Positions 24,939 through 62,853 of a stretch of 64,000 nt of DNA are shown here, one piece after another. A program made the translations under genes and the position numbers. Under the pieces are notes generated by a model that worked only from the letters and a program-made list of their open reading frames with translations, had not been told where the DNA came from and searched no databases. How positions within the stretch are numbered: position 1 is the first letter of the stretch; every line of letters starts with the position of its first letter. Origin of the DNA: Octopus sinensis (taxonomy: Eukaryota); contig NC_042997.1 of NCBI RefSeq assembly GCF_006345805.1, forward strand, positions 103,044,001 to 103,108,000, in the 5' to 3' direction.

Positions 24939-27900
24939 ATATATACATACGAAAACGAGAACGTTGCGTCTGCCTTTTCTTCACAGTAACCGCATTCTCT
25001 CTCTGAGAGTGAGAGGAAAAAAAGAGTCAAAGAAAGAAGCAGAGAGTGGATGAGAGAGGGAAGCATTGCTATAGTCACATATGCTTATTTTTGTTTGTCT
25101 TTATATCTTTGCAATGGCACATTTCCAAAACCTAACTGTATCAAGGAGGGAAATGAAAAGAAAAAAAGTCAGAAATCAGCATATGACCTACATATTTCTC
25201 CTTTGAGTTTTGATACAAATACTAAAGATATCTATTATTACTTTACGAGAATTTGGTTGCACGAAGCAACAGATTTACGACGGTGTGCTTTATTTTCCTT
25301 TTTTACACTCCAATATATATATATATCATTATTATTATTATTATCTCATTATTATATAGGCACACAAGTAAATTTTAAGAAAGAAGGTTATAATTTATAT
25401 AATCGATTCAAATATGTTACTGGTGCTTAATTTAAAGCTTGCTGTGGGATGAAAGACAAAATTAACTCTCCTTGGATTTTACTTCAGAACGTAGCTGTAC
25501 AAAACTGAAGTCAGGTACTTTAACAGCAATGCCAAACCTCCGCTTTTTACAATATGATATAAATAGTATCTCGTGTATTGGCAACAACTAAAGTAGTTTG
25601 AGTTTTGTAGTTTGCAGTAACTTAATGCTTTATCTTGTTATGCACAGAAATGTATTTTCTTTACGTAATGCATGTTAATTACAAGGTACATATAACACTT
25701 ATATATGTCACTTTTATATCCAACGAAGTTTAATAAGATCCATATTTAATTCGCGTGTTATTTTAAGAAGGCATTTCTGTATTCTAGTTAAGAGTTACTC
25801 TATGATATAAAATTTAATTCATGTAGGTTCTGTCTGGTATTAAATAAGCATATATACTAATCATATCTTACAGGTATGATGAATATTAGTGCAGTCACGG
25901 ACTATAGTATATCTATTTAAAATCAGATATCGTATTATCTGACATAGGTGTTTAATGGGTCTGTCATATTTCAGGGAATGTACTCTTTACTCTTTTTCAA
26001 ATAAAAGAAAAAGAAATAAAAAAATTTGGCGAAGAACCTGTTGGTAACAAGTTTTCTTTCTTCGATATGAAGAGGAAAATAGTTATAGAAATAAAGGATC
26101 ATAGAAAATCTGTATAAGATAATACAATACCAGTTTTTTTTAATATTTCAATAATTTAAGAAGTAATAGTCTTTCATAGAGTAATAGACTTAATCATTCG
26201 CCCAGTTTAACATCAATTATGGTCTTTGGTTACATTTAGTGAACCCCACTACGTTGAAGCATTCGTACCATTTCCGATCTGCGTATAATTTACAACATAT
26301 CTCCATATAACTCAACCGGAAGGCTCTGAAAAGGGACATGAACATTGCCTTTCTTTCTCTGATAAACTATAAAGGATTAACATATTTTTTTATGTGACCC
26401 ACATTATTGCTACTGCTCAGAATGCAACTACTTCATGCCTAAACATTTTACTGCATATCCTAAAAAAAGATAATTTGACCGATAGTTAGACCCATATATC
26501 AATACACTTCGACTACTACCCCACCAACACAGTCGTCTGGTGTCACTGTAATATACACTTGTTTCACTCTCTCGCACTCCTTTTACCTTAATTCGTCACA
26601 TCCTCTCAGCCCGTATCAGTCACTTCATATATACATTCTATTCTAAAACGTCAAACCAACAAGGGAGCCTCTTCGTGATTGCTCAATCTTTTAGAAATAG
26701 TAGCTAAATTTATCCCAGATCATACTCTAAATTCATTGGACAGAAAGTACACAAGTCGAAAAAGGTAGACTTGAAACACGCATATGACAGGGTGGTCACA
26801 GCTGCAGTGCTTTTGATTACCGATCTATATACGACCAGGGTTGACCTTATGCTATAGAAAAGCGAAAACCCTAAAACTGAAATTGTCTGCTACTCTCTTC
26901 TTGGCGACGTTTACTCTACAGACATCACACTATTGAAATTTATGAGGAACACTAACTGAATTGATCATGGCATTTTTGTTTATAATTTCGTCTTGTTAGT
27001 GACTCCTGCGTGGGTGCGCAAAAATGAAATATTGAAATTACGGTGGAGGACCACTTATATTCCAGTGATGTCTTCTAAACATTACTTTTAATCACATTTG
27101 TTTCTATGCAGTCAATATAACTTGTAAACCTTTCAACATACAGCAACTTCATCATGCTTTTTAGATATTTATGTCAAACGTGCACATACAGGGACTCAAA
27201 AGAACTTCCAGATAGGCACATGAAAACCTAGGGCCTTTCCAAAGAATCAACAAGACAAACACAAACACCAAGGGAGAGGTATTGTATTACACTCTCATTA
27301 TACTTGAATAACGTATAACGATTACAACTGTTAAGTTCCATAATATTAAAGGTGATAAAACCTGACTCTATAAACTAGGTTTCCTCTTTAGAACCAGAAC
27401 ATATTTCACATCTGACAAGTTACTAAACATTTACAAAGCTCAACTAAGATCTGCCCTCAATCTTCACATACTTTGATTGAGCTATTGCGGACTTCACAAA
27501 TACCATAAACTACATCTCGAAATGAATTAAGAGAATTTTCAATGTTTCACCATTACGAAACCCACTCGATGTATGTAACTCTTCACTGTCTTACTTCAAT
27601 AACTGTACTTAACACTGCCTGATCTTTCCTCCCTAGCTAGTAGTATTCTGGATCCCTTCCTTATCCACATTTTCCCTGCAGGCATCACCTGTATACATTT
27701 TGCTTTATGTCGGTCATATCGATTTCATTATTCTGAAATAAAAGACAAGAACTTTGTTTCCTAATACTTTGATTAAAAATAAAGAATCTGCTGTGGTCGT
27801 TTTCATTATATCTCTTCCTTCATGCATGGGCTTTTGCAGCTGAAAACTTTGAACTTAGTCCTGTACAACAATGAACCATTTATCATTTATACAGTGTATC

Positions 27901-40853: not shown

Positions 40854-41397
40854 AAATGTGCTGGAAGCGGTTCTACGACTCGTATTCTATTAACATAGAT
40901 ACACTTTAGGATTTGTTATATCGCACCCACCTCGCATGCACTTCCTTTTTAACCATCCGATATCTGCATGCATTATTGACATTTTGCTCTACATATGTCA
41001 AAACTCAAAACCATTCTTCAAAGCATATATAAGAGCCAATGCAAACTACTTTCAACGGCACCGAGACACAATGAACCCCGTCTGTCGGTACTCTTGGAAT
41101 CCGCATGCTACTGGCATTCGGGCCTACCTAACTGATCAACTTCTTTTATTCTTTAATATATACCTTCTCCAAACCAGCATAAACATTTTCTAATAATTCT
41201 GGAATCATCTTGACACCATTTAGTCCTTGAACAACAACACTATTATTTCAATCACTAATGATCTTGAGCGCAAACTTCGTCATATGGTTTTAGGGGAAAA
41301 TAAAAGTGCACATTTATTCTACAATTTTCTGTGATTTTAACGCCAGAAGACCGTAACCAGGATTGAGAACGTAAATTGATCAACAGATTTGGCTCAC

Positions 41398-41469
41398 CTG
41401 GAGCTTGCTTTGTGCTCCTTCCTGATGTACTGGATATGGAGCATCATTTGATTTTTCAGTAGCACATTC
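41398..41469 (-). CDS. Candidate exon 8 (72 nt, phase 0-0): ECATEKSNDAPYPVHQEGAQSKLQ
   Basis: Acceptor ..GCTACATAG, donor CAG|GTGAGC, open frame. Confidence 0.6.
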
Positions 41470-41923
41470 CTATGTAGCATAGCAAAAGCAAGATAGTTCA
41501 CATCTAGTTTCTTAAATTGAAAGTAATTGTTCAAATAATACTTGGTCGTGTACAGTAAACAGTTAAAATAAAAATATAAAGATAAACAATGACACACGTG
41601 TAAAACACTATGAATGAATGTTAACACAAATGAGATTCTAGGAGTAATCTGTAAATATATATCACTATAGTACGTGCATTGAATTACGTAGGTAATTCTT
41701 GGTCCTCTCAGTATATATCAAGCAATCTGCGATAAGGAGTGGTTATAATTATACGATTTACAATTTTCTAAATAATCTCATATTTCAATGTCTTGATACT
41801 GCAAGTTAGTTAAGGAGGTGATGACATTTATGCTTACGTCTAATTTAGTTTAGAAGTTTGGTTCGAAAAGAACTTATGTTTCGGGTTTGTCTACGCGCAC
41901 TTAAATGTCTGTCCGTGACTTAC

Positions 41924-41942
41924 ATTTATAGCTTTCTGTCGA
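41924..41942 (-). CDS. Candidate micro-exon 7 (19 nt, phase 2-0): (I)RQKAIN
   Basis: Acceptor TTTTATTTTCAG, donor GTAAGT. Confidence 0.6.
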
Positions 41943-41971
41943 CTGAAAATAAAAGCTAGAAAAAATATTTG

Positions 41972-42024
<53 letters not shown>

Positions 42025-42089
42025 CCGTATCACGTCCTCGCATTGCTGTTTTTTTCTCTTTTTTTCTGTGTTTTCTTGTTTGGATTAAC

Positions 42090-42144
<55 letters not shown>

Positions 42145-42398
42145 TGTATGTATGTGTGTGTGTGTCTGTGCACGCACGCGTGTTTTTGTATGTATGTGGA
42201 AGTACATATATGTATATGAGTGCGTGGTTGGTGGCTGGCCCAGGATAACCTCAGTCCAATAATTAAAACAAGTAAAAGAATAAAAGAATAGCCAAAGATA
42301 TTATGCATTAAAACAATTTTTACAACTTTGAAAATCAGAGAGTTTTTCAAGGACATCAGCACATTCAGCTTACAATCATCTTACTAAGTGTTTACCTT

Positions 42399-43190
42399 AC
42401 AGGGTGCATCAGTTTTCTTTGGGGTCATTTGCATGAATTTAGAAAAAGGAACATAACTCATCAAAGAAAAGCTGTATTTGAAACAAATCAGTACAAATAA
42501 TTTGGAGACTCCAATTCAACGAATCCACAGTTAGCTTTAATGACTGCTTCAACACGGGGTCAGAAGCGTTGACATGCCCGAATCAGATTATGTCTATCAA
42601 TTTTGGACACGTGTTGGTTATACAGGACTTGAGAGATTGTATGGTGTCATAGAGGTGTTGATTGACTTCTCTCTCGACAACGCTCCATATGTAATAGTCT
42701 AGTAGGTTGCCTGGTGAGATCAGAAGCTACGTGACTGGAAGCATGATCTTGGGCATTGGTACGCGTTCACACTTGGATTGTCCGAGCCACATGAGACGGC
42801 GTAGAGTCTTGTTGGAAGATGTACCATCTTTCGTTGCATACTCTGTCTATCGACGGCCTCACAACTTTCTCCAGGAGTACTGTGTAGACAGCAGCGTCAA
42901 CTCTTTAGTCATGTGAAAAAAAAGTTAGGAGGCATGATATCTCTCTCGCTTCTGATAACTCAGAGAATCATCACAGTTGTTGGGAACTTAGAATGAGTGA
43001 CTGTTGGGAACTTATTTGGGTCTCTGCATAACCTTCTACTGTTTCTGTGGTTTACCTTTTAGTCCTGATCGAAGTTTTCTCATCGGAGAAAAAACAAAGC
43101 ATTCTAGCAGCTGCGTGTCTTCCTACGAAGCACATCTAAGTCGACTGCGCAGATTGCAAATCAGCAGTCGGTGTATCCGACGATTTTAAA
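42399..43190 (-). mobile_element. Degenerate Tc1/mariner-superfamily element
   Basis: TA-CAGGGTG terminus. Minus-strand YIFQQDSTP, LDYYIW, ACQRF*PRVEAV. Confidence 0.6.
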
Positions 43191-44259
43191 ATGTGCACAA
43201 CCTATACTACTGGCCTACAGATGTGATCTGGATTAAGTTTGTCTGGATTAACCATTGCAGGTACATTCTGGAAATCCAGTCGGTACCTGTCAGATAGTTG
43301 AAAAATCTGAGCATGTTTGTGAGACTTTCGCAACCCCTCTCCAATTACTCATTCCCATAAAATCCAGATGTGTATATAAGATGCCATTCCGCCCCACCCC
43401 CTGTAGCAGTAAAGAGCAAGTTGTTCTGAGGAAATAAATCTCTAGACACCTGAGGAATTCCGGGTGTCACTTCCCGTTGAAGCATAAATAGCTATATGCC
43501 CGAAACTACCCACCTTCACCACTGTTCACATCCAGGACCACCAACTTACTTTCTATGTCCAAGAAGACGGTCCGTATCAATAAATATAGACTCTTTCAAA
43601 ACAACACATCATCTCCGCCTTTCAGTCCCGGTGAACTTGAAAATAAATAGATCTGTTACCCACGGAAAATGGGGATGAAGGCTTGATGATCGGAGGCTCT
43701 GGTTTCGCTGTTGGCCAACACAGCTATACTTTGTGACCTGAAGACGTTGACCAGCAGGTACTGCTTCCAATATGCCTCGAGATTACGTGTATTCAGACCA
43801 TCTATTCTGAGTACGGCCATGACTGAGAAGAGAGAGGAAAGTGAAAAAGGCTTGTTTACCTTATTCCTATAGAGCGGCTGGTGTTTCGTTTCACTGACTT
43901 GCTGTAGGTGTTTCTTCTAGCACATTTTTGCATAATATTTTAATAATAATCCCGCTGGTCTCCTACACCATCGGAGTATTTAAGTTTTAGGATGTTATAT
44001 GTGTATTGTGATACCTGGATTAATTCTATGCGTACTAAAATATCCTTGGTTAATGTGCTGGCAGAATCGTTAGCACACCAGGAGAAATGCTTAGCTGTCT
44101 TTCGTCCGTCTTCACGTTCTGAGTTCCAATTCCGCCGAGGTCGACTTTGCCCTCCATCCTTTCGGAATCGATAAAAGAAGTACTAGATGAGCTATGGAGT
44201 CTATGTAATCGACTTACCATCTCCCCGAAATTGCTGGCCTTGTGGCAAAATTTGAAATC

Positions 44260-45130
44260 AATATTACTTTTGGAGTGTGCCATCTAACTGTTGTGGAAGA
44301 AATTAGGTTCTCCCACAACAATAGTATCTGTGATAGTGGTGGTGTCGAGGATAGTGGTGTCCATAGGACTGGTATAACTGCTGTTGTGGATGTGCTGGTG
44401 CATTGTTGCACAAAGCTATCTCCTACAGTTGTTCGTATCTGTCAGTTTTACGTGTTGTGTTTTTTTCTGTTTCTTTTTCTTTTCTCACTGTCCCCTTCGC
44501 CAGACGACAGATTTGAGTGAACACTAATGGAGAGGGGCATATTTTAGGGTCATTGCCTTTTTGTTTAATAGTTGTTTTTTTAGGGGGAAGGTATGTCTTC
44601 ACATACCGATGTTGTTGGTAATGTGGTTGCTCATGTGAGTAATTTTTGTTTTGTTGTTGCCGTAGGTGCTGCCTTCAGTCTGGTTGCAGCTAGTGCAGCC
44701 ACTCGTTGCTTTTGTTGTTGTTTTGGTTGCTGCAGTTATTTGCCTTGGGGTTACTGCTGTTATTGGAAGTGCTGAAGTTGTGGTGTTGGCAAAAGCCTCC
44801 TTTCAGCTGTCATTGTCTCTTGCCGGGGTAGAAAGCCTTGACCTTGAGGTGATTAATGTTTCTACAATTGTAGCATCCAGGCTTCCTACTATCACATCCA
44901 GTTGCTTCCCTTCTGGAATCTCTATTAGGTCGGGGATTTTGTCTAGTGTCTCAGATTTCGCCTGACTAAAAGACTCCAATCCCATCCAAACCCGATTTTC
45001 TTCTTGGAATCTTTTTATTTCTTGCAGCGTGCTAGTCTTACAAATATAGCATCTACCAAATAATAAAAACAAACAAACAAACAAAAACGAAAACAAAACA
45101 GACAATAAACCCAATGATGCAGTTGTGTGC
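44260..45130 (-). mobile_element. Degenerate L1/Tx1-type ORF1 remnant
   Basis: NRVWMGLESF..DLIEIPEGKQLDVIV resembles the other ORF1 copies. Confidence 0.4.
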
Positions 45131-45228
45131 AATTAAAACTTGTGCATAGAGAACAAATTAGAACCAAAATTAAACTTTAATGCTTCTGTCATTTCAATAA
45201 GGTTTAATAATTACCATCCTGTACTCAC

Positions 45229-45249
45229 ATAACTGTTGTAAGCCTATCT
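45229..45249 (-). CDS. Candidate micro-exon 6 (21 nt, phase 2-2): (K)DRLTTV
   Basis: Acceptor TTTTATCTCTTTCATAATACAG, donor GTGAGT. Confidence 0.6.
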
Positions 45250-45494
45250 CTGTATTATGAAAGAGATAAAAATGTCACAAAAACAAAATCCTACTCCCGT
45301 TACCTCCACAAAGAGAACGACATGACTTTTAATTCACACGTTCATGTTGCTCATAAGAGCAAATATTTCGTCCAGTTTTAATTCATTTTCTTTTTTTTTT
45401 TGTCACGATGTTAGTTTCCGTGCCTCAATCATCACAACTTGAACAAAATGTTTCCACTAAATATTCATATTCGAATACATTCATATATATATAG

Positions 45495-45884
45495 TGTATG
45501 GTTGAGAAGCTTGTTTCCAAACCACGTGGCCTTGGGTTCAGCCCCACTGTGCAGTATATCAAGCAAACGTCTTCTACTGCTGCACTGAGGCGACCAAAGC
45601 CTTGTGTGTGGATTTGGTAGACGGAAAATGAAAGAAGCCCGTCACACACGCGCGCGCGTATATGTGTGTGCGTGACTTTGTATTTGTTTACCACCACCGC
45701 TCGAGAGCGGCATTGGCTTGTTTACGTGCCTGTAACCTGGCAGTTTGGCTCAAGGCACTTATAGAACAAATTACAGGCTAAAAAAAACCCTCACAAAATA
45801 TAAATAGCGGGATCAACTTGCTCGATTAAACCCTTCAAGGCATGGTCGCATCCCTATGATTGAAACATGTAAAAGATAAAAGAT
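45495..45884 (+). mobile_element. SINE family A, diverged
   Basis: Homologous to 1472-1951. Another degenerate copy at about 46515-46720 (-). Confidence 0.7.
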
Positions 45885-45918
45885 ATTCTAATACCAATCA
45901 ATTGTAACTCATATATAC

Positions 45919-45945
45919 TTGGTTGGTGTTACGTTGGCTAACTTT
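45919..45945 (-). CDS. Candidate micro-exon 5 (27 nt, phase 2-2): (Q)KLANVTPT
   Basis: Acceptor GTTTTCTTTTATAG, donor CAA|GTATAT. Confidence 0.55.
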
Positions 45946-46023
45946 CTATAAAAGAAAACGTACGAAATAGTAATCTTCCATATTTTATTGTATTAGCATA
46001 TAGAATATAGTTATCGAACTTAC

Positions 46024-46048
46024 TGGTGTTCATTAACGACTCGATATT
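46024..46048 (-). CDS. Candidate micro-exon 4 (25 nt, phase 1-2): (E)YRVVNEH
   Basis: Acceptor TATTTAATTTAG, donor GTAAGT. Confidence 0.6.
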
Positions 46049-46150
46049 CTAAATTAAATACGAGTGAATTTGTCAAAGAGATAGAGGAGATCCTTAACAT
46101 CATAACGTTGAATCAGAAGTAACTACCATTTGTAAGCGTTCAAAAGTTAC

Positions 46151-46170
46151 CGTCAGCGATCCTCGTTAGT
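46151..46170 (-). CDS. Candidate micro-exon 3 (20 nt, phase 2-1): (Q)LTRIAD
   Basis: Acceptor TACTTTCCTTCAG, donor ACG|GTAACT. Confidence 0.55.
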
Positions 46171-46381
46171 CTGAAGGAAAGTAACAATACCTGTAATCCT
46201 TCTAGATTCTTCTAGACTGACCGGTTTGAAAAATTATAGGTTGGTTAAAGCTGTATTAGTTCATAATTGCAATAATTATCTCTGCTGCTCAATTAAGTTA
46301 AAGTAGGAGCTGATTTAGTCTCATGAAGAAGTGACAGATCACTGTTTAAGTTGTGAATAATTAACCACGTTGCAGGAATAC

Positions 46382-46436
46382 TGATGACCATGTTTATGTT
46401 GACGACGATGATGATGATGATGGTGTTGATGGTCTC
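46382..46436 (-). CDS. Candidate exon 2 (55 nt, phase 1-2): (G)DHQHHHHHHRRQHKHGH
   Basis: Acceptor ATATTTCCGCAG, donor CA|GTATTC, His-rich frame. Confidence 0.55.
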
Positions 46437-47824
46437 CTGCGGAAATATTTGGTAATTTATAAAGAAAAAAAATCGATGAAATAATGAGTAGAATAGCATC
46501 TAGCGAATCTTTAACTGTTTCAGCGGCCATACTGGGGCATCACTTTGAAGGGTTTAATCGAATGAATCGCCCCCAGTACTTATTTTAAGTCTACTACTTA
46601 TTCTAGCGGTCTATTTTACTGAACAGCTTACAGAGACGTAAACAAACCAGCACCAGTTGTCTAATGCTGGTGGACATACACACATGCGACATGCTTCCAC
46701 AAAGCTTCCGAAGTCTCGATCTATCAAATCCAATCGAAAAGATGTGAACTTTTAAAAGGAAACAAAAACTGTTCAAATCATAACGTCTAAATGTAACCAC
46801 TCGACTTCGGAGGTCAAATGGGTATTGCGCCTCATTGTATCATTTTCATATTTTCATTCGTTCTTTTTATTTTTTCTTCTTCACTCGATTTCTTTCTGTA
46901 TTTTTACTTCCCCGACTATGTATCCTGTATTATTTTGTAATGTCCCATCTATGTTTGGCCCCTTGTAGGTAATAGAAAAATCAGGACATTGGTGCTGCCT
47001 TGACGGAGGTTTGCCCTCTCTGAGTGCTCTTGTTTTATTTTTATTTTATCTTTACTTATTGCATTTTTTATGTTTATAATTTTTTGTGTAGTCTCATCAG
47101 GGCGACGAGCTGGTAGAATCATTAGCGCAACGGACAAAAATTCTTAGCGGCATTTCTTCCGGCTCTTTAGTTCAAATTTCTGTAAGGTCAGCTTTGCCTT
47201 TCATCCTTTCAGGGAGCAATGAAATCGACCTACACTTCTTCACAAATTGCTATATTTGTGCAAAATTAAAATGAATTGTCGTTTTTGGTTGTTTTAATCT
47301 CATAAAAAAAAGATATGGATCCTCGTCGGTTTTAGATATGATTATTTAGTTGCTCGATCGATCTGACCACTAATTTTCAAAATTAGCGTGTAAATGGGAG
47401 AGTATTTTTCAAACACGTGTATCGTTAATGGAATTCTCAGGTTGAATCATCGTGGGACAGTATGTGACAAAGCCATGTTATTACTGGTATGGTTTTTCTC
47501 ACAGATTCTGTGTATTCCATTTCTCATACAAAGCCTGGTTCTACTTGATCTTATGATTCAAGACACAAAGATTATTGCTCAAGATCTCATGCTGTGGGTT
47601 TGAGCCTGATGCCTCATGATTGCAAAGCGAGCTTCTTAATTATTCTACCATACTGTATCCACTTGTTCATCGAACAACACAAATGCACTGTATGTCCTTT
47701 TATTGACTTAGTCTCCCAAAAGTATGAATAGCTAAACCGAACCTTGACAGAATTTCAATTCAGTAGAGGGGCGAACGATATACACTGCTTCTATTCAGGC
47801 ACCTTTATGTTTTTTGCAGCTCAC

Positions 47825-47873
47825 CACCTAACAAAGTATAAGTCACAATTACAACAAGAACAACAACCGGCAT
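47825..47873 (-). CDS. Candidate first coding exon, signal peptide MPVVVLVVIVTYTLLG (phase-1 end)
   Basis: AAAATG start context, hydrophobic run, donor GTG|GTGAGC. Confidence 0.6.
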
Positions 47874-48242
47874 TTTCGTGGCTGGAATAACTTGAAGGGC
47901 TAATTGTGAATTAACCAGTACCCAAGAGAATTCGCTATGAAGTGACACACAAATACGTTTTATGTTTGTGTTAATTATCGCATCCAACGTATTCGGTATT
48001 TGCAAAATATATTATAATGTATTACTGGAAAGGAGCCAAGAAAGAATTAATCGGTGAAACTCAACAAACAATCTCTGTTTTATTTTGATCGTTTGTGCAG
48101 TTGGTGAAATTGTATGTAGAATGGTGCTTGATTTTATTTTTAACGTCTATTTCTGGTGTACAATTCAGAGCTGCAGTTTTTCTGAAATGTGACAGAAGAG
48201 ATATGAACGTTATCTCACAATTTCCACCGGCTGAATTGATTG

Positions 48243-60974: not shown

Positions 60975-62158
60975 TGGCTACCTTGGCTGAAGCAGCCAGC
61001 GTCCCTTCGTCCTATTTAGACATTAACTTCCCTGCATTGCCGAACACCGGAGGGAAGGAAGAAAAGATTTGTATCACATTCACACACACAGTTGAACAGC
61101 GTTAACAGACATGGACAACAGCCTCCCAAGCAAGCAAATGGGAAAGGAAATCAAGAAGAACGAACAAATATCTACTGCCACCACCGATGTCATCACCACT
61201 ATCTCTACTACCACCACCACCACCACCACCACCACCAACAACAACAACACAAACAGTCAAAGTAACTTTGCTTCAGTTTTGAGGCAAAGAAAACGTGTTG
61301 TTACATTTACGCCACAACCGTTAATGGAAATAAAACATCTCTTTATCTAAGGAGAGTGATACAATAAACCTAAATATAACGCATCACAATTTATTAACAA
61401 AAAAGAAAAAAAAAACAATCATATATAAGAAAGACAATCAATTTAAAAACGAGAAGACCCGAAAACATAAATCAACAAATAATCGAAAAATGTTTAAGGC
61501 CCATGTGGGCACATAAAAAAATACATAACAAGGGGCAAAAGATTTGCCACAGGTTTGATTCAGAAGAGCAAACCAAAGTCTTTCCTACAGAATCATTTCA
61601 GTCTGAAGAAATACTAATGATCCCAATGTACTTAGGGCGGAGGGTCACAAAAATAAAAATCAAGGATGTGCCTCTTGAAATTGAAGCACAACAGAACTGG
61701 ATAGGCCAGTCTTTCGAAATCTTGATACAAGTAAATCAAGATACAATTGAAAATATAGCAGATTTTATAAAACTGCCAGCCGGTACCAATTTACATGTCG
61801 CCGTTGAAGGCAGAAAATCACGCTGTCACTTCTGTAGAAGTAAAAATCACTTAAAAGTGGGTTGCCCAATATGCAAGGTGCAACAGCAACAAAAACAAGA
61901 AGAAGAAGAAGAAGAAGAAGTACAACAACAACAACAACAACCACAATAGCAAAAACAACCACAACAAGAAAGCCAAAAACAACTGATACCCACACCGCCA
62001 TATGCACAGCTAATAAAACAGCTCCACCAAGAAATGAAAGAGCAACAGCAACCAACAAGCCAGTCCAACCAAAACGACACCCCCATCAGCGTCACAAAGA
62101 ACAGAAACAACATCATCCCCATCACCACCACCACCACCACCACCAACAACAACAACAA

Positions 62159-62191
<33 letters not shown>

Positions 62192-62853
62192 CTATAGAAG
62201 CACCAAATGAAGATGAGAAAAACAAAAGGATTTATACCCCACCCCTAAAAACCCATACACCAGATCCCAACTGTCACCAACTAACACAAACACCAACACC
62301 AACAACAAAAACATTAACACACTCAGAAATAGACCCCAATACTCTCTCCTTACCACTTTCTGATTCCTCCGACATGTCGTCCGATGACAGCGACATGGAG
62401 GAATGGCAAGTGGCCACAGAAGGTGAAAAAGGGGAAAAAAAGAAAAGAGAAGTGAAGAAACAACCATAACTGTATTGAAATCCGAGACATCCAGCCTGCC
62501 CTCCAAAACCAAAACACCCGCACAAAACAAAAGCATTAAAACAAACACAGAAACACTCAATGAATCCCCAATGCTGACAGCAATAAACACAAATAATCCA
62601 AACCTAATGCAATACATTCGGTCAAACACCAACATAACAGAAGACAATTTCAAAACAATCACCTACGCACAACACCACCACAACACATAAAAATCCTACA
62701 CGTAATACAAAACACACAACACATTGAAATCTCTCTACCCTGATGCAGTAGGGAGATTTCAAAAGTATTTATCAAAAACGAAAGTACAAAAACCCGAGGG
62801 AAGATTGTAAGGAGAACAACCAGCTATCGAACAATAAGTGACTCTCTCCTTCT

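What the first reader, a model, noticed from the sequence alone, without database searches (positions are those of the whole stretch)
41398..47873. Hidden micro-exon gene encoding a secreted His-rich protein
Seen: eight minus-strand segments with canonical GT donors, all but the first (start-codon) exon also with a pyrimidine-rich AG acceptor. They are 47873-47825 (49 nt), 46436-46382 (55), 46170-46151 (20), 46048-46024 (25), 45945-45919 (27), 45249-45229 (21), 41942-41924 (19) and 41469-41398 (72). Their phases chain (1,2,1,2,2,2,0,0) into a stop-free 96-codon frame: MPVVVLVVIVTYTLLGGDHQHHHHHHRRQHKHGHQLTRIADEYRVVNEHQKLANVTPTKDRLTTVIRQKAINECATEKSNDAPYPVHQEGAQSKLQ. All lie in unique DNA between transposons. 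Knowledge: a signal-peptide exon followed by a run of micro-exons is the architecture of schistosome micro-exon genes, and His-rich secreted proteins are known from cephalopod hard tissues. Inference: an unannotated secreted, possibly metal-binding protein whose symmetric micro-exons (27 and 21 nt) could be skipped to make isoforms. Caveat: I partly used phase compatibility to pick the exons, so the chain is not fully independent evidence.
Basis: partly seen in the sequence, partly recalled or inferred. Interest (0 to 1): 0.9.

Follow-up and report, generated by a model that had tools for sequence, protein, structure and literature searches.

The report
Probable unannotated octopus short-exon gene
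Eight short stretches in an octopus gene desert look more like the real exons of an unannotated secreted-protein gene than chance would give, but no spliced RNA was seen, the histidine-rich exon is the weakest link, and it is not a schistosome-type micro-exon gene.

Summary
All eight segments, their AG/GT ends, phases and the 96-codon open frame are as described. The genome is an Octopus. Against nulls from 664 kb of flanking DNA the chain ranks near the top. Features my null chains were not selected on also look exonic: A-rich composition, protein-like residues, and a chain phase that is each exon's best coding frame. No spliced read, paralogue or homologous protein was found, but those tests were weak. 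Against it: a diverged DNA-like run has exon 3's donor changed from GT to AT, and exon 2 (the His patch) is a CAT-microsatellite look-alike with a weak donor. Exons 2+3 can be skipped together in frame, so a real gene need not carry the His patch. The model has no stop and must continue; 27732-27689 is a candidate next exon. Only 17% of the coding length lies in symmetric micro-exons, so it fails the schistosome MEG definition. Verdict: about 50% a live secreted short-exon gene, 20% a decaying or membrane-anchored variant, 30% chance.

The parts
47825..47873 (-). Exon 1 coding part (ATG to donor): 16 codons, Val-rich hydrophobic core; possible acceptor at 47881 makes it a 57-nt internal exon
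   Evidence: donor top 0.7%; unique; 10-aa KD 3.38, 19-aa KD 1.64; best coding frame
46382..46436 (-). Exon 2, His patch (10 His); CAT-microsatellite-like, weak donor; doubtful or optional
46151..46170 (-). Exon 3, 20 nt; its donor G (46150) reads A in run X3; doubtful or optional
   Evidence: table 3, 33
46024..46048 (-). Exon 4, 25 nt; phase-compatible directly with exon 1
45919..45945 (-). Exon 5, 27 nt, symmetric (phase 2-2)
45229..45249 (-). Exon 6, 21 nt, symmetric (phase 2-2)
41924..41942 (-). Exon 7, 19 nt
41398..41469 (-). Exon 8, 72 nt, phase 0-0; strongest candidate (best donor, coding score 6.7 in frame against -3.7 and -3.2); not terminal
27689..27732 (-). Candidate exon 9, 44 nt, phase 0 in, A-rich, strong splice sites; speculative continuation
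   Evidence: no RNA evidence

Best explanation
The 5' coding part of a single-copy, lineage-restricted, unannotated gene on the minus strand, spliced at ordinary GT-AG introns. Inferred steps: exon 1 encodes a short hydrophobic signal peptide that ends at a phase-1 intron and sends the protein into the secretory path; exons 4-8 encode a polar low-cysteine mature region; the gene continues beyond 41398 (candidate 27732-27689). Exons 2+3 (75 nt together) are most likely an optional or young cassette: exon 2 is an exonised CAT microsatellite that would add a His/Arg patch able to bind Zn/Cu or drive pH-dependent association of an extracellular matrix or secretion protein. Shown: the sequence anatomy and its departure from local nulls. 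Not shown: transcription, splicing, secretion, metal binding. I put inclusion of the His exon at about half of this case.
For: Exons 3-5 are the only stop-free one of 3 tightly spaced micro-exon triples found. Composition of exons 3-8 against random stop-free chains of pseudo-exons: amino-acid log-odds reached by 8 of 5000, A-over-T skew by 0 of 5000. With a codon-position model trained on 489 codons of two neighbouring genes, the chain phase is the best frame for all eight exons (exon 5 a near tie); total score P 0.0008, best-frame count P 0.007 in 20000 random chains. With splice plus coding score, 1 of 165 chain-bearing windows beats exons 3-8. Skipping 2+3 or 3+4 keeps the frame open. No other host-gene exon was recognised between a RING-finger gene about 285 kb away and a carbonic anhydrase about 215 kb away.
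Against: Run X3 (0.6% diverged, 20 substitutions in 3307 nt) reads A at the +1 G of exon 3's donor in its one contig there (depth 6.5 of 6.5); 1 of 18 invariant splice bases hit, neutral expectation 0.11; skipping exon 3 alone gives a stop at codon 40. Exon 2 resembles at least 82 genomic CAT repeats and has a weak donor; exon 1's Val run comes from a GTT-like stretch with exact 17-nt copies nearby. For the five micro-exons alone the P values are only 0.004-0.025. Helical periodicity is not above shuffles (P 0.22). Unspliced contigs bridge exon 1 (X4, X5) and exons 2-3 (X4) whole; whether these runs are RNA is not on record.
Confidence: 0.5

Rival explanations
1. A chance chain of pseudo-exons in intergenic or intronic DNA: a GTT-like stretch mimics a signal peptide, a CAT microsatellite mimics a His patch, and short AG..GT pairs were picked to fit phase.
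Against: Composition and codon-position frame agreement were not used to build my null chains and are rare in them. Two of the three protein searches could not have reported the model protein even if stored.
Confidence: 0.3
2. A formerly functional short-exon gene that is now decaying or dispensable in this species group; exon-like composition persists while splice sites start to erode.
For: Reconciles the exon-like statistics with the lost donor in X3 and the lack of listed joints.
Against: The frame is intact over 96 codons in this genome; no substitution is listed inside exons 3-6 in X3 (but only about 0.6 expected, so little power).
Confidence: 0.12
3. The segments are internal exons of a longer gene: exon 1 is a symmetric 57-nt internal exon (47881-47825) that encodes a membrane anchor, followed by a basic/His juxtamembrane patch and a micro-exon-coded stem or tail.
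For: An acceptor lies at 47881 (top 7%) with the same frame open through it; X5 contigs cover DNA up to 350 nt upstream of the ATG.
Against: The hydrophobic run is short for a membrane span (19-residue KD 1.64); no recognisable domain exon lies on this strand within 190 kb downstream among 148 long ORFs tested (short exons would be missed).
Confidence: 0.08

Closest known systems
Schistosome micro-exon genes (MEGs) (PMC4350168; 10.1101/2023.06.21.545858; passages read)
   Same: Signal-peptide exon followed by a run of very short exons in transposon-rich surroundings; easy for annotation pipelines to miss; some in-frame skips possible.
   Different: MEGs have 10-20 exons, mostly multiples of three, that make up most of the coding region, form families and are described as restricted to flatworms. 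Here 5 micro-exons, 2 symmetric (17% of 288 nt), single copy, no isoform shown.
Squid histidine-rich beak proteins, DgHBPs (PMC9716703, passages read)
   Same: Cephalopod, putatively secreted, His content.
   Different: His is confined to one 19-codon patch (10 of 12 His). The long Gly/His repeats of DgHBPs (recalled) are absent. No sequence link was tested or found.
Lineage-specific secreted proteins missed by reference annotation, such as sponge GranRep and tunicate YYD (PMC11703226, passages read)
   Same: Orphan secreted protein, invisible to homology search.
   Different: Those are repeat proteins shown by RNA; this has no internal repeat and no RNA support yet.

Membership tests
Schistosome MEG | Most of the coding region in very small symmetric exons | tested here: not met
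   Exons of at most 36 nt hold 39% of 288 nt, symmetric ones 17%; definition from PMC4350168 passage. The model is incomplete at its 3' end.
Schistosome MEG | N-terminal signal peptide | tested here: inconclusive
   Hydropathy only (10-aa KD 3.38); no basic n-region; SignalP not available.
Schistosome MEG | Exon skipping yields a pool of isoforms | tested here: inconclusive
   11 skip combinations keep the frame; no joint between model exons listed in 4 runs, tables cut.
Schistosome MEG | Multi-copy families in platyhelminths | tested here: not met
   Octopus genome; no paralogue of the exon 1 or exon 7-8 regions.
Cephalopod His-rich beak proteins (DgHBP) | His-rich repeats over a long domain (recalled) | tested here: not met
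   One His patch of 19 codons in the 96 modelled; the C-terminal part is unknown.
Cephalopod His-rich beak proteins (DgHBP) | Expression in beak-forming tissue | not testable with these tools
   Run tissues are not shown.

The most novel reading that the evidence does not exclude
All eight exons are real and the gene uses single (5, 6) and paired (2+3, 3+4) cassette skipping to make a family of secreted isoforms with or without a microsatellite-born metal-binding His patch: a MEG-like diversifier that arose independently in octopus.
Probability: 0.08. Interest if true: 0.7.

Novelty: new member of a known kind. Interest (0 to 1): 0.33.

Why it matters
If real, it is an octopus orphan gene that homology-based annotation and 31-mer transcript indexes both tend to miss, which suggests a hidden class of short-exon secreted genes in cephalopod gene deserts. 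It would also be a tidy case of a microsatellite exonised into a His patch. Searches for microexon/micro-exon with octopus, cephalopod or mollusc listed no paper on such a gene, and two peptide motifs are in no searched paper. If false, it shows how easily AT-rich, microsatellite-rich DNA yields convincing micro-exon chains.

Tried and rejected
Sequencing runs: for 41385-41485 (5 sampled words) no RNA holder listed; 5 holders of unrecorded kind. This blank is not used as evidence. Laying X4, X5, X3, X6 on 42200-48230 listed no joint between model exons, but SINE matches filled the tables (154 joints, 814 loose ends, 38785 pieces not shown), the exon 2 repeat appears to have been skipped, and exons 7-8 lay outside the stretch. 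Protein searches: exon 2 frame, no candidate (a stored model protein would score E 0.085, if its low-complexity words count); exon 1 frame, 6 candidates, none at E<=10 (the model would score E 11, so uninformative); representatives, 0 at E<=0.001 (the model would score 0.32, uninformative). Positive control: the neighbouring carbonic anhydrase exon finds annotated Octopus proteins. Exon 8 is too short for these searches. Pfam on 148 minus-strand ORFs (of 165 listed) and 125 further frames gave transposon domains, one FLYWCH frame and weak sub-threshold hits. A link to the carbonic anhydrase gene was rejected: opposite strand, over 200 kb away. Amphipathic-helix periodicity not significant. U12-type reading of the exon 2 or variant exon 3 donor rejected by eye against the recalled consensus. 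The bacterial promoter scan does not apply. Earlier findings: none on this genome, unrelated ones by words. The original MEG paper (PMC2909574) is not held; bioRxiv 10.64898/2026.09.05.749416 passages did not bear on the locus.

Full report
Observation. The eight segments, splice dinucleotides, phases and the open 96-codon frame are exactly as stated. With recalled generic splice matrices, six donors are in the top 3% of the window's GTs, exon 5's in the top 24%, and exon 2's is poor (71%); all seven acceptors are in the top 10%. The exon 1 and exon 7-8 regions are single copy. Exon 2 is not: 82 of 88 genomic matches of 45850-46500 are to its CAT-repeat core. The model is incomplete: exon 8 ends in a donor, and an acceptor sits 8 nt before the ATG.

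Is it more than chance? Single micro-exon-like pairs are common (40 and 37 per strand in 64 kb). I built nulls from 664 kb of contiguous flanking DNA, both strands, 37% masked as repeat. Exons 3-5 are the only stop-free one of three tight micro-exon triples. Tests on properties not used for chaining are more telling. Exons 2-8 all have more A than T; for exons 3-8 the skew is reached by 0 of 5000 and the amino-acid log-odds by 8 of 5000 random stop-free chains. A codon-position model trained on 489 codons from nine exons of the two flanking genes picks the chain's phase as best frame for exons 3-8 (5 of 6 plus a near tie unrounded; 6 of 6 rounded) and for exons 1 and 2; P 0.007 for the count and 0.0008 for the total among 20000 random chains. 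Exon 8 carries about half of that signal; for the five micro-exons alone P is 0.004-0.025. Since the scan reads very many windows, a configuration at this level will also arise by chance now and then, at a rate I judge comparable to that of real unannotated genes of this build (inference).

Reads. The index listed five holders of the exon 8 region and none on record as RNA (not evidence). I laid X4, X5 (86-88 million letters, kind unknown), X3 (large, DNA-like) and X6 (RNA by guess) on 42200-48230. No joint between model exons is listed, but SINE matches crowded the tables. What contigs bridge: X4 runs unspliced through exons 2 and 3 (46086-46457, depth 3.5) and exon 1 (47773-47976); X5 runs through exon 1 (47716-47924). 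X4 and X5 cover 1765 and 1650 of 6031 nt with long contigs although each holds about 3% of the genome's length, and their repeat depths are not proportional to X3's (ratios from 0.14 down to 0.001 or less). That fits nascent RNA or an enriched DNA library; I cannot tell which. Both show extra depth, not explained by listed contigs, in the two bins holding exon 1 (X4 9.0 and 9.7 against 2.8 and 4.0; X5 16.0 and 9.4 against 2.3 and 2.7). Hidden spliced pieces are one reading, but they sit badly with low-depth contigs that pass through the exon; short matches to the GTT-like stretch are another. I leave it unexplained. The clearest result against the model: X3, 0.6% diverged, reads AT for the GT of exon 3's donor (46150; one contig, depth 6.5). 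One hit in 18 invariant bases has a neutral chance of 0.10 and should be rarer under selection.

Reconciling. Exons 2 and 3 are the two doubtful ones, and together they are 75 nt: exon 1 joins exon 4 in frame without them. Skipping 3+4, 5 or 6 also keeps the frame; skipping 3 alone does not. So a real gene may have a core of exons 1 and 4-8 and carry the His patch only as a young or optional cassette. Downstream, 27732-27689 is a strong phase-0 candidate for the next exon; this is speculation.

Homologues. None found, but a power test shows that two of three searches could not have reported the model protein and the third depended on low-complexity words. The database does hold Octopus annotations. 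No Pfam family matches the exon 1, 2 or 8 frames. The interval between a RING-finger gene (about C1:102.79-102.80 Mb) and an alpha carbonic anhydrase (C1:103.30-103.33 Mb) showed transposon-type frames and no other recognisable gene in my scans; short exons would be missed.

Mechanism. Most likely (0.5): a single-copy secreted-protein gene with ordinary GT-AG splicing, a signal peptide ended by a phase-1 intron, a polar mature region on short exons and an optional His/Arg patch that could bind Zn or Cu. Everything beyond the anatomy is inferred. Rivals: chance chain (0.3), decaying gene (0.12), internal membrane-anchor exons of a longer gene (0.08).

Comparison. It resembles schistosome MEGs in outline only. 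MEGs have most of the coding region in small symmetric exons and are described as restricted to flatworms (PMC4350168, passages; 10.1101/2023.06.21.545858, passages); here symmetric micro-exons hold 17%. Squid beak His-rich proteins (PMC9716703, passages) share only His content. Supplements of the bioRxiv papers could not be seen; octopus exon tables there might list the locus.

Verdict. Observation confirmed; interpretation partly supported; probably an unannotated orphan gene, unproven; interest 0.33.

Noticed in passing
G000:C1:103304643-103325862 (+), loci L049-L051: Alpha carbonic anhydrase gene, 98% identical in one exon to an annotated Octopus vulgaris protein; its last found exon frame ends in a Gly-Ser repeat.
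   Followed up: partly
L065:1271-3801 and L064:4714-7835 (+): RING-finger gene exons (Pfam zf-RING_2, E 2e-5, just under the cut-off); RNF25-like by recall only.
   Followed up: partly
window:47654-48057: Runs X4 and X5 show extra contig depth in the two bins around exon 1 that the listed contigs do not explain; X6 shows it in the first bin only.
   Followed up: partly
window:42200-48230: X4 and X5 cover about 28% of this stretch with unspliced low-depth contigs, far above their 3% genome share, at partly the same places: possible nascent transcription or open chromatin.
   Followed up: partly
window:45494: X3 has a 22-nt insertion relative to the window at the edge of a repeat (table 4).
   Followed up: no
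window:19637-21002 (+): Remnant of a hAT-type DNA transposase in two frames (weak DUF4371 hit; family by recall).
   Followed up: no
window:30400-35300, 38200-39700, 61400-62500: Several decayed LINE-like fragments (endonuclease and gag-like frames) and many copies of a SINE-like repeat.
   Followed up: no
window:56062-56380: A 60-nt tandem array (5.3 copies) built from ATC/GTC triplets, the same repeat family that exon 2 resembles.
   Followed up: no
L054:683-772 and L054:8691-8771 (-): Two exon-like, protein-like frames with no Pfam match just beyond the carbonic anhydrase gene: probably another gene.
   Followed up: no
L027:1412-1759 (+); L017:348-842 (-): A FLYWCH zinc-finger frame (E 1e-10) and Helitron fragments, probably transposon-borne.
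   Followed up: no
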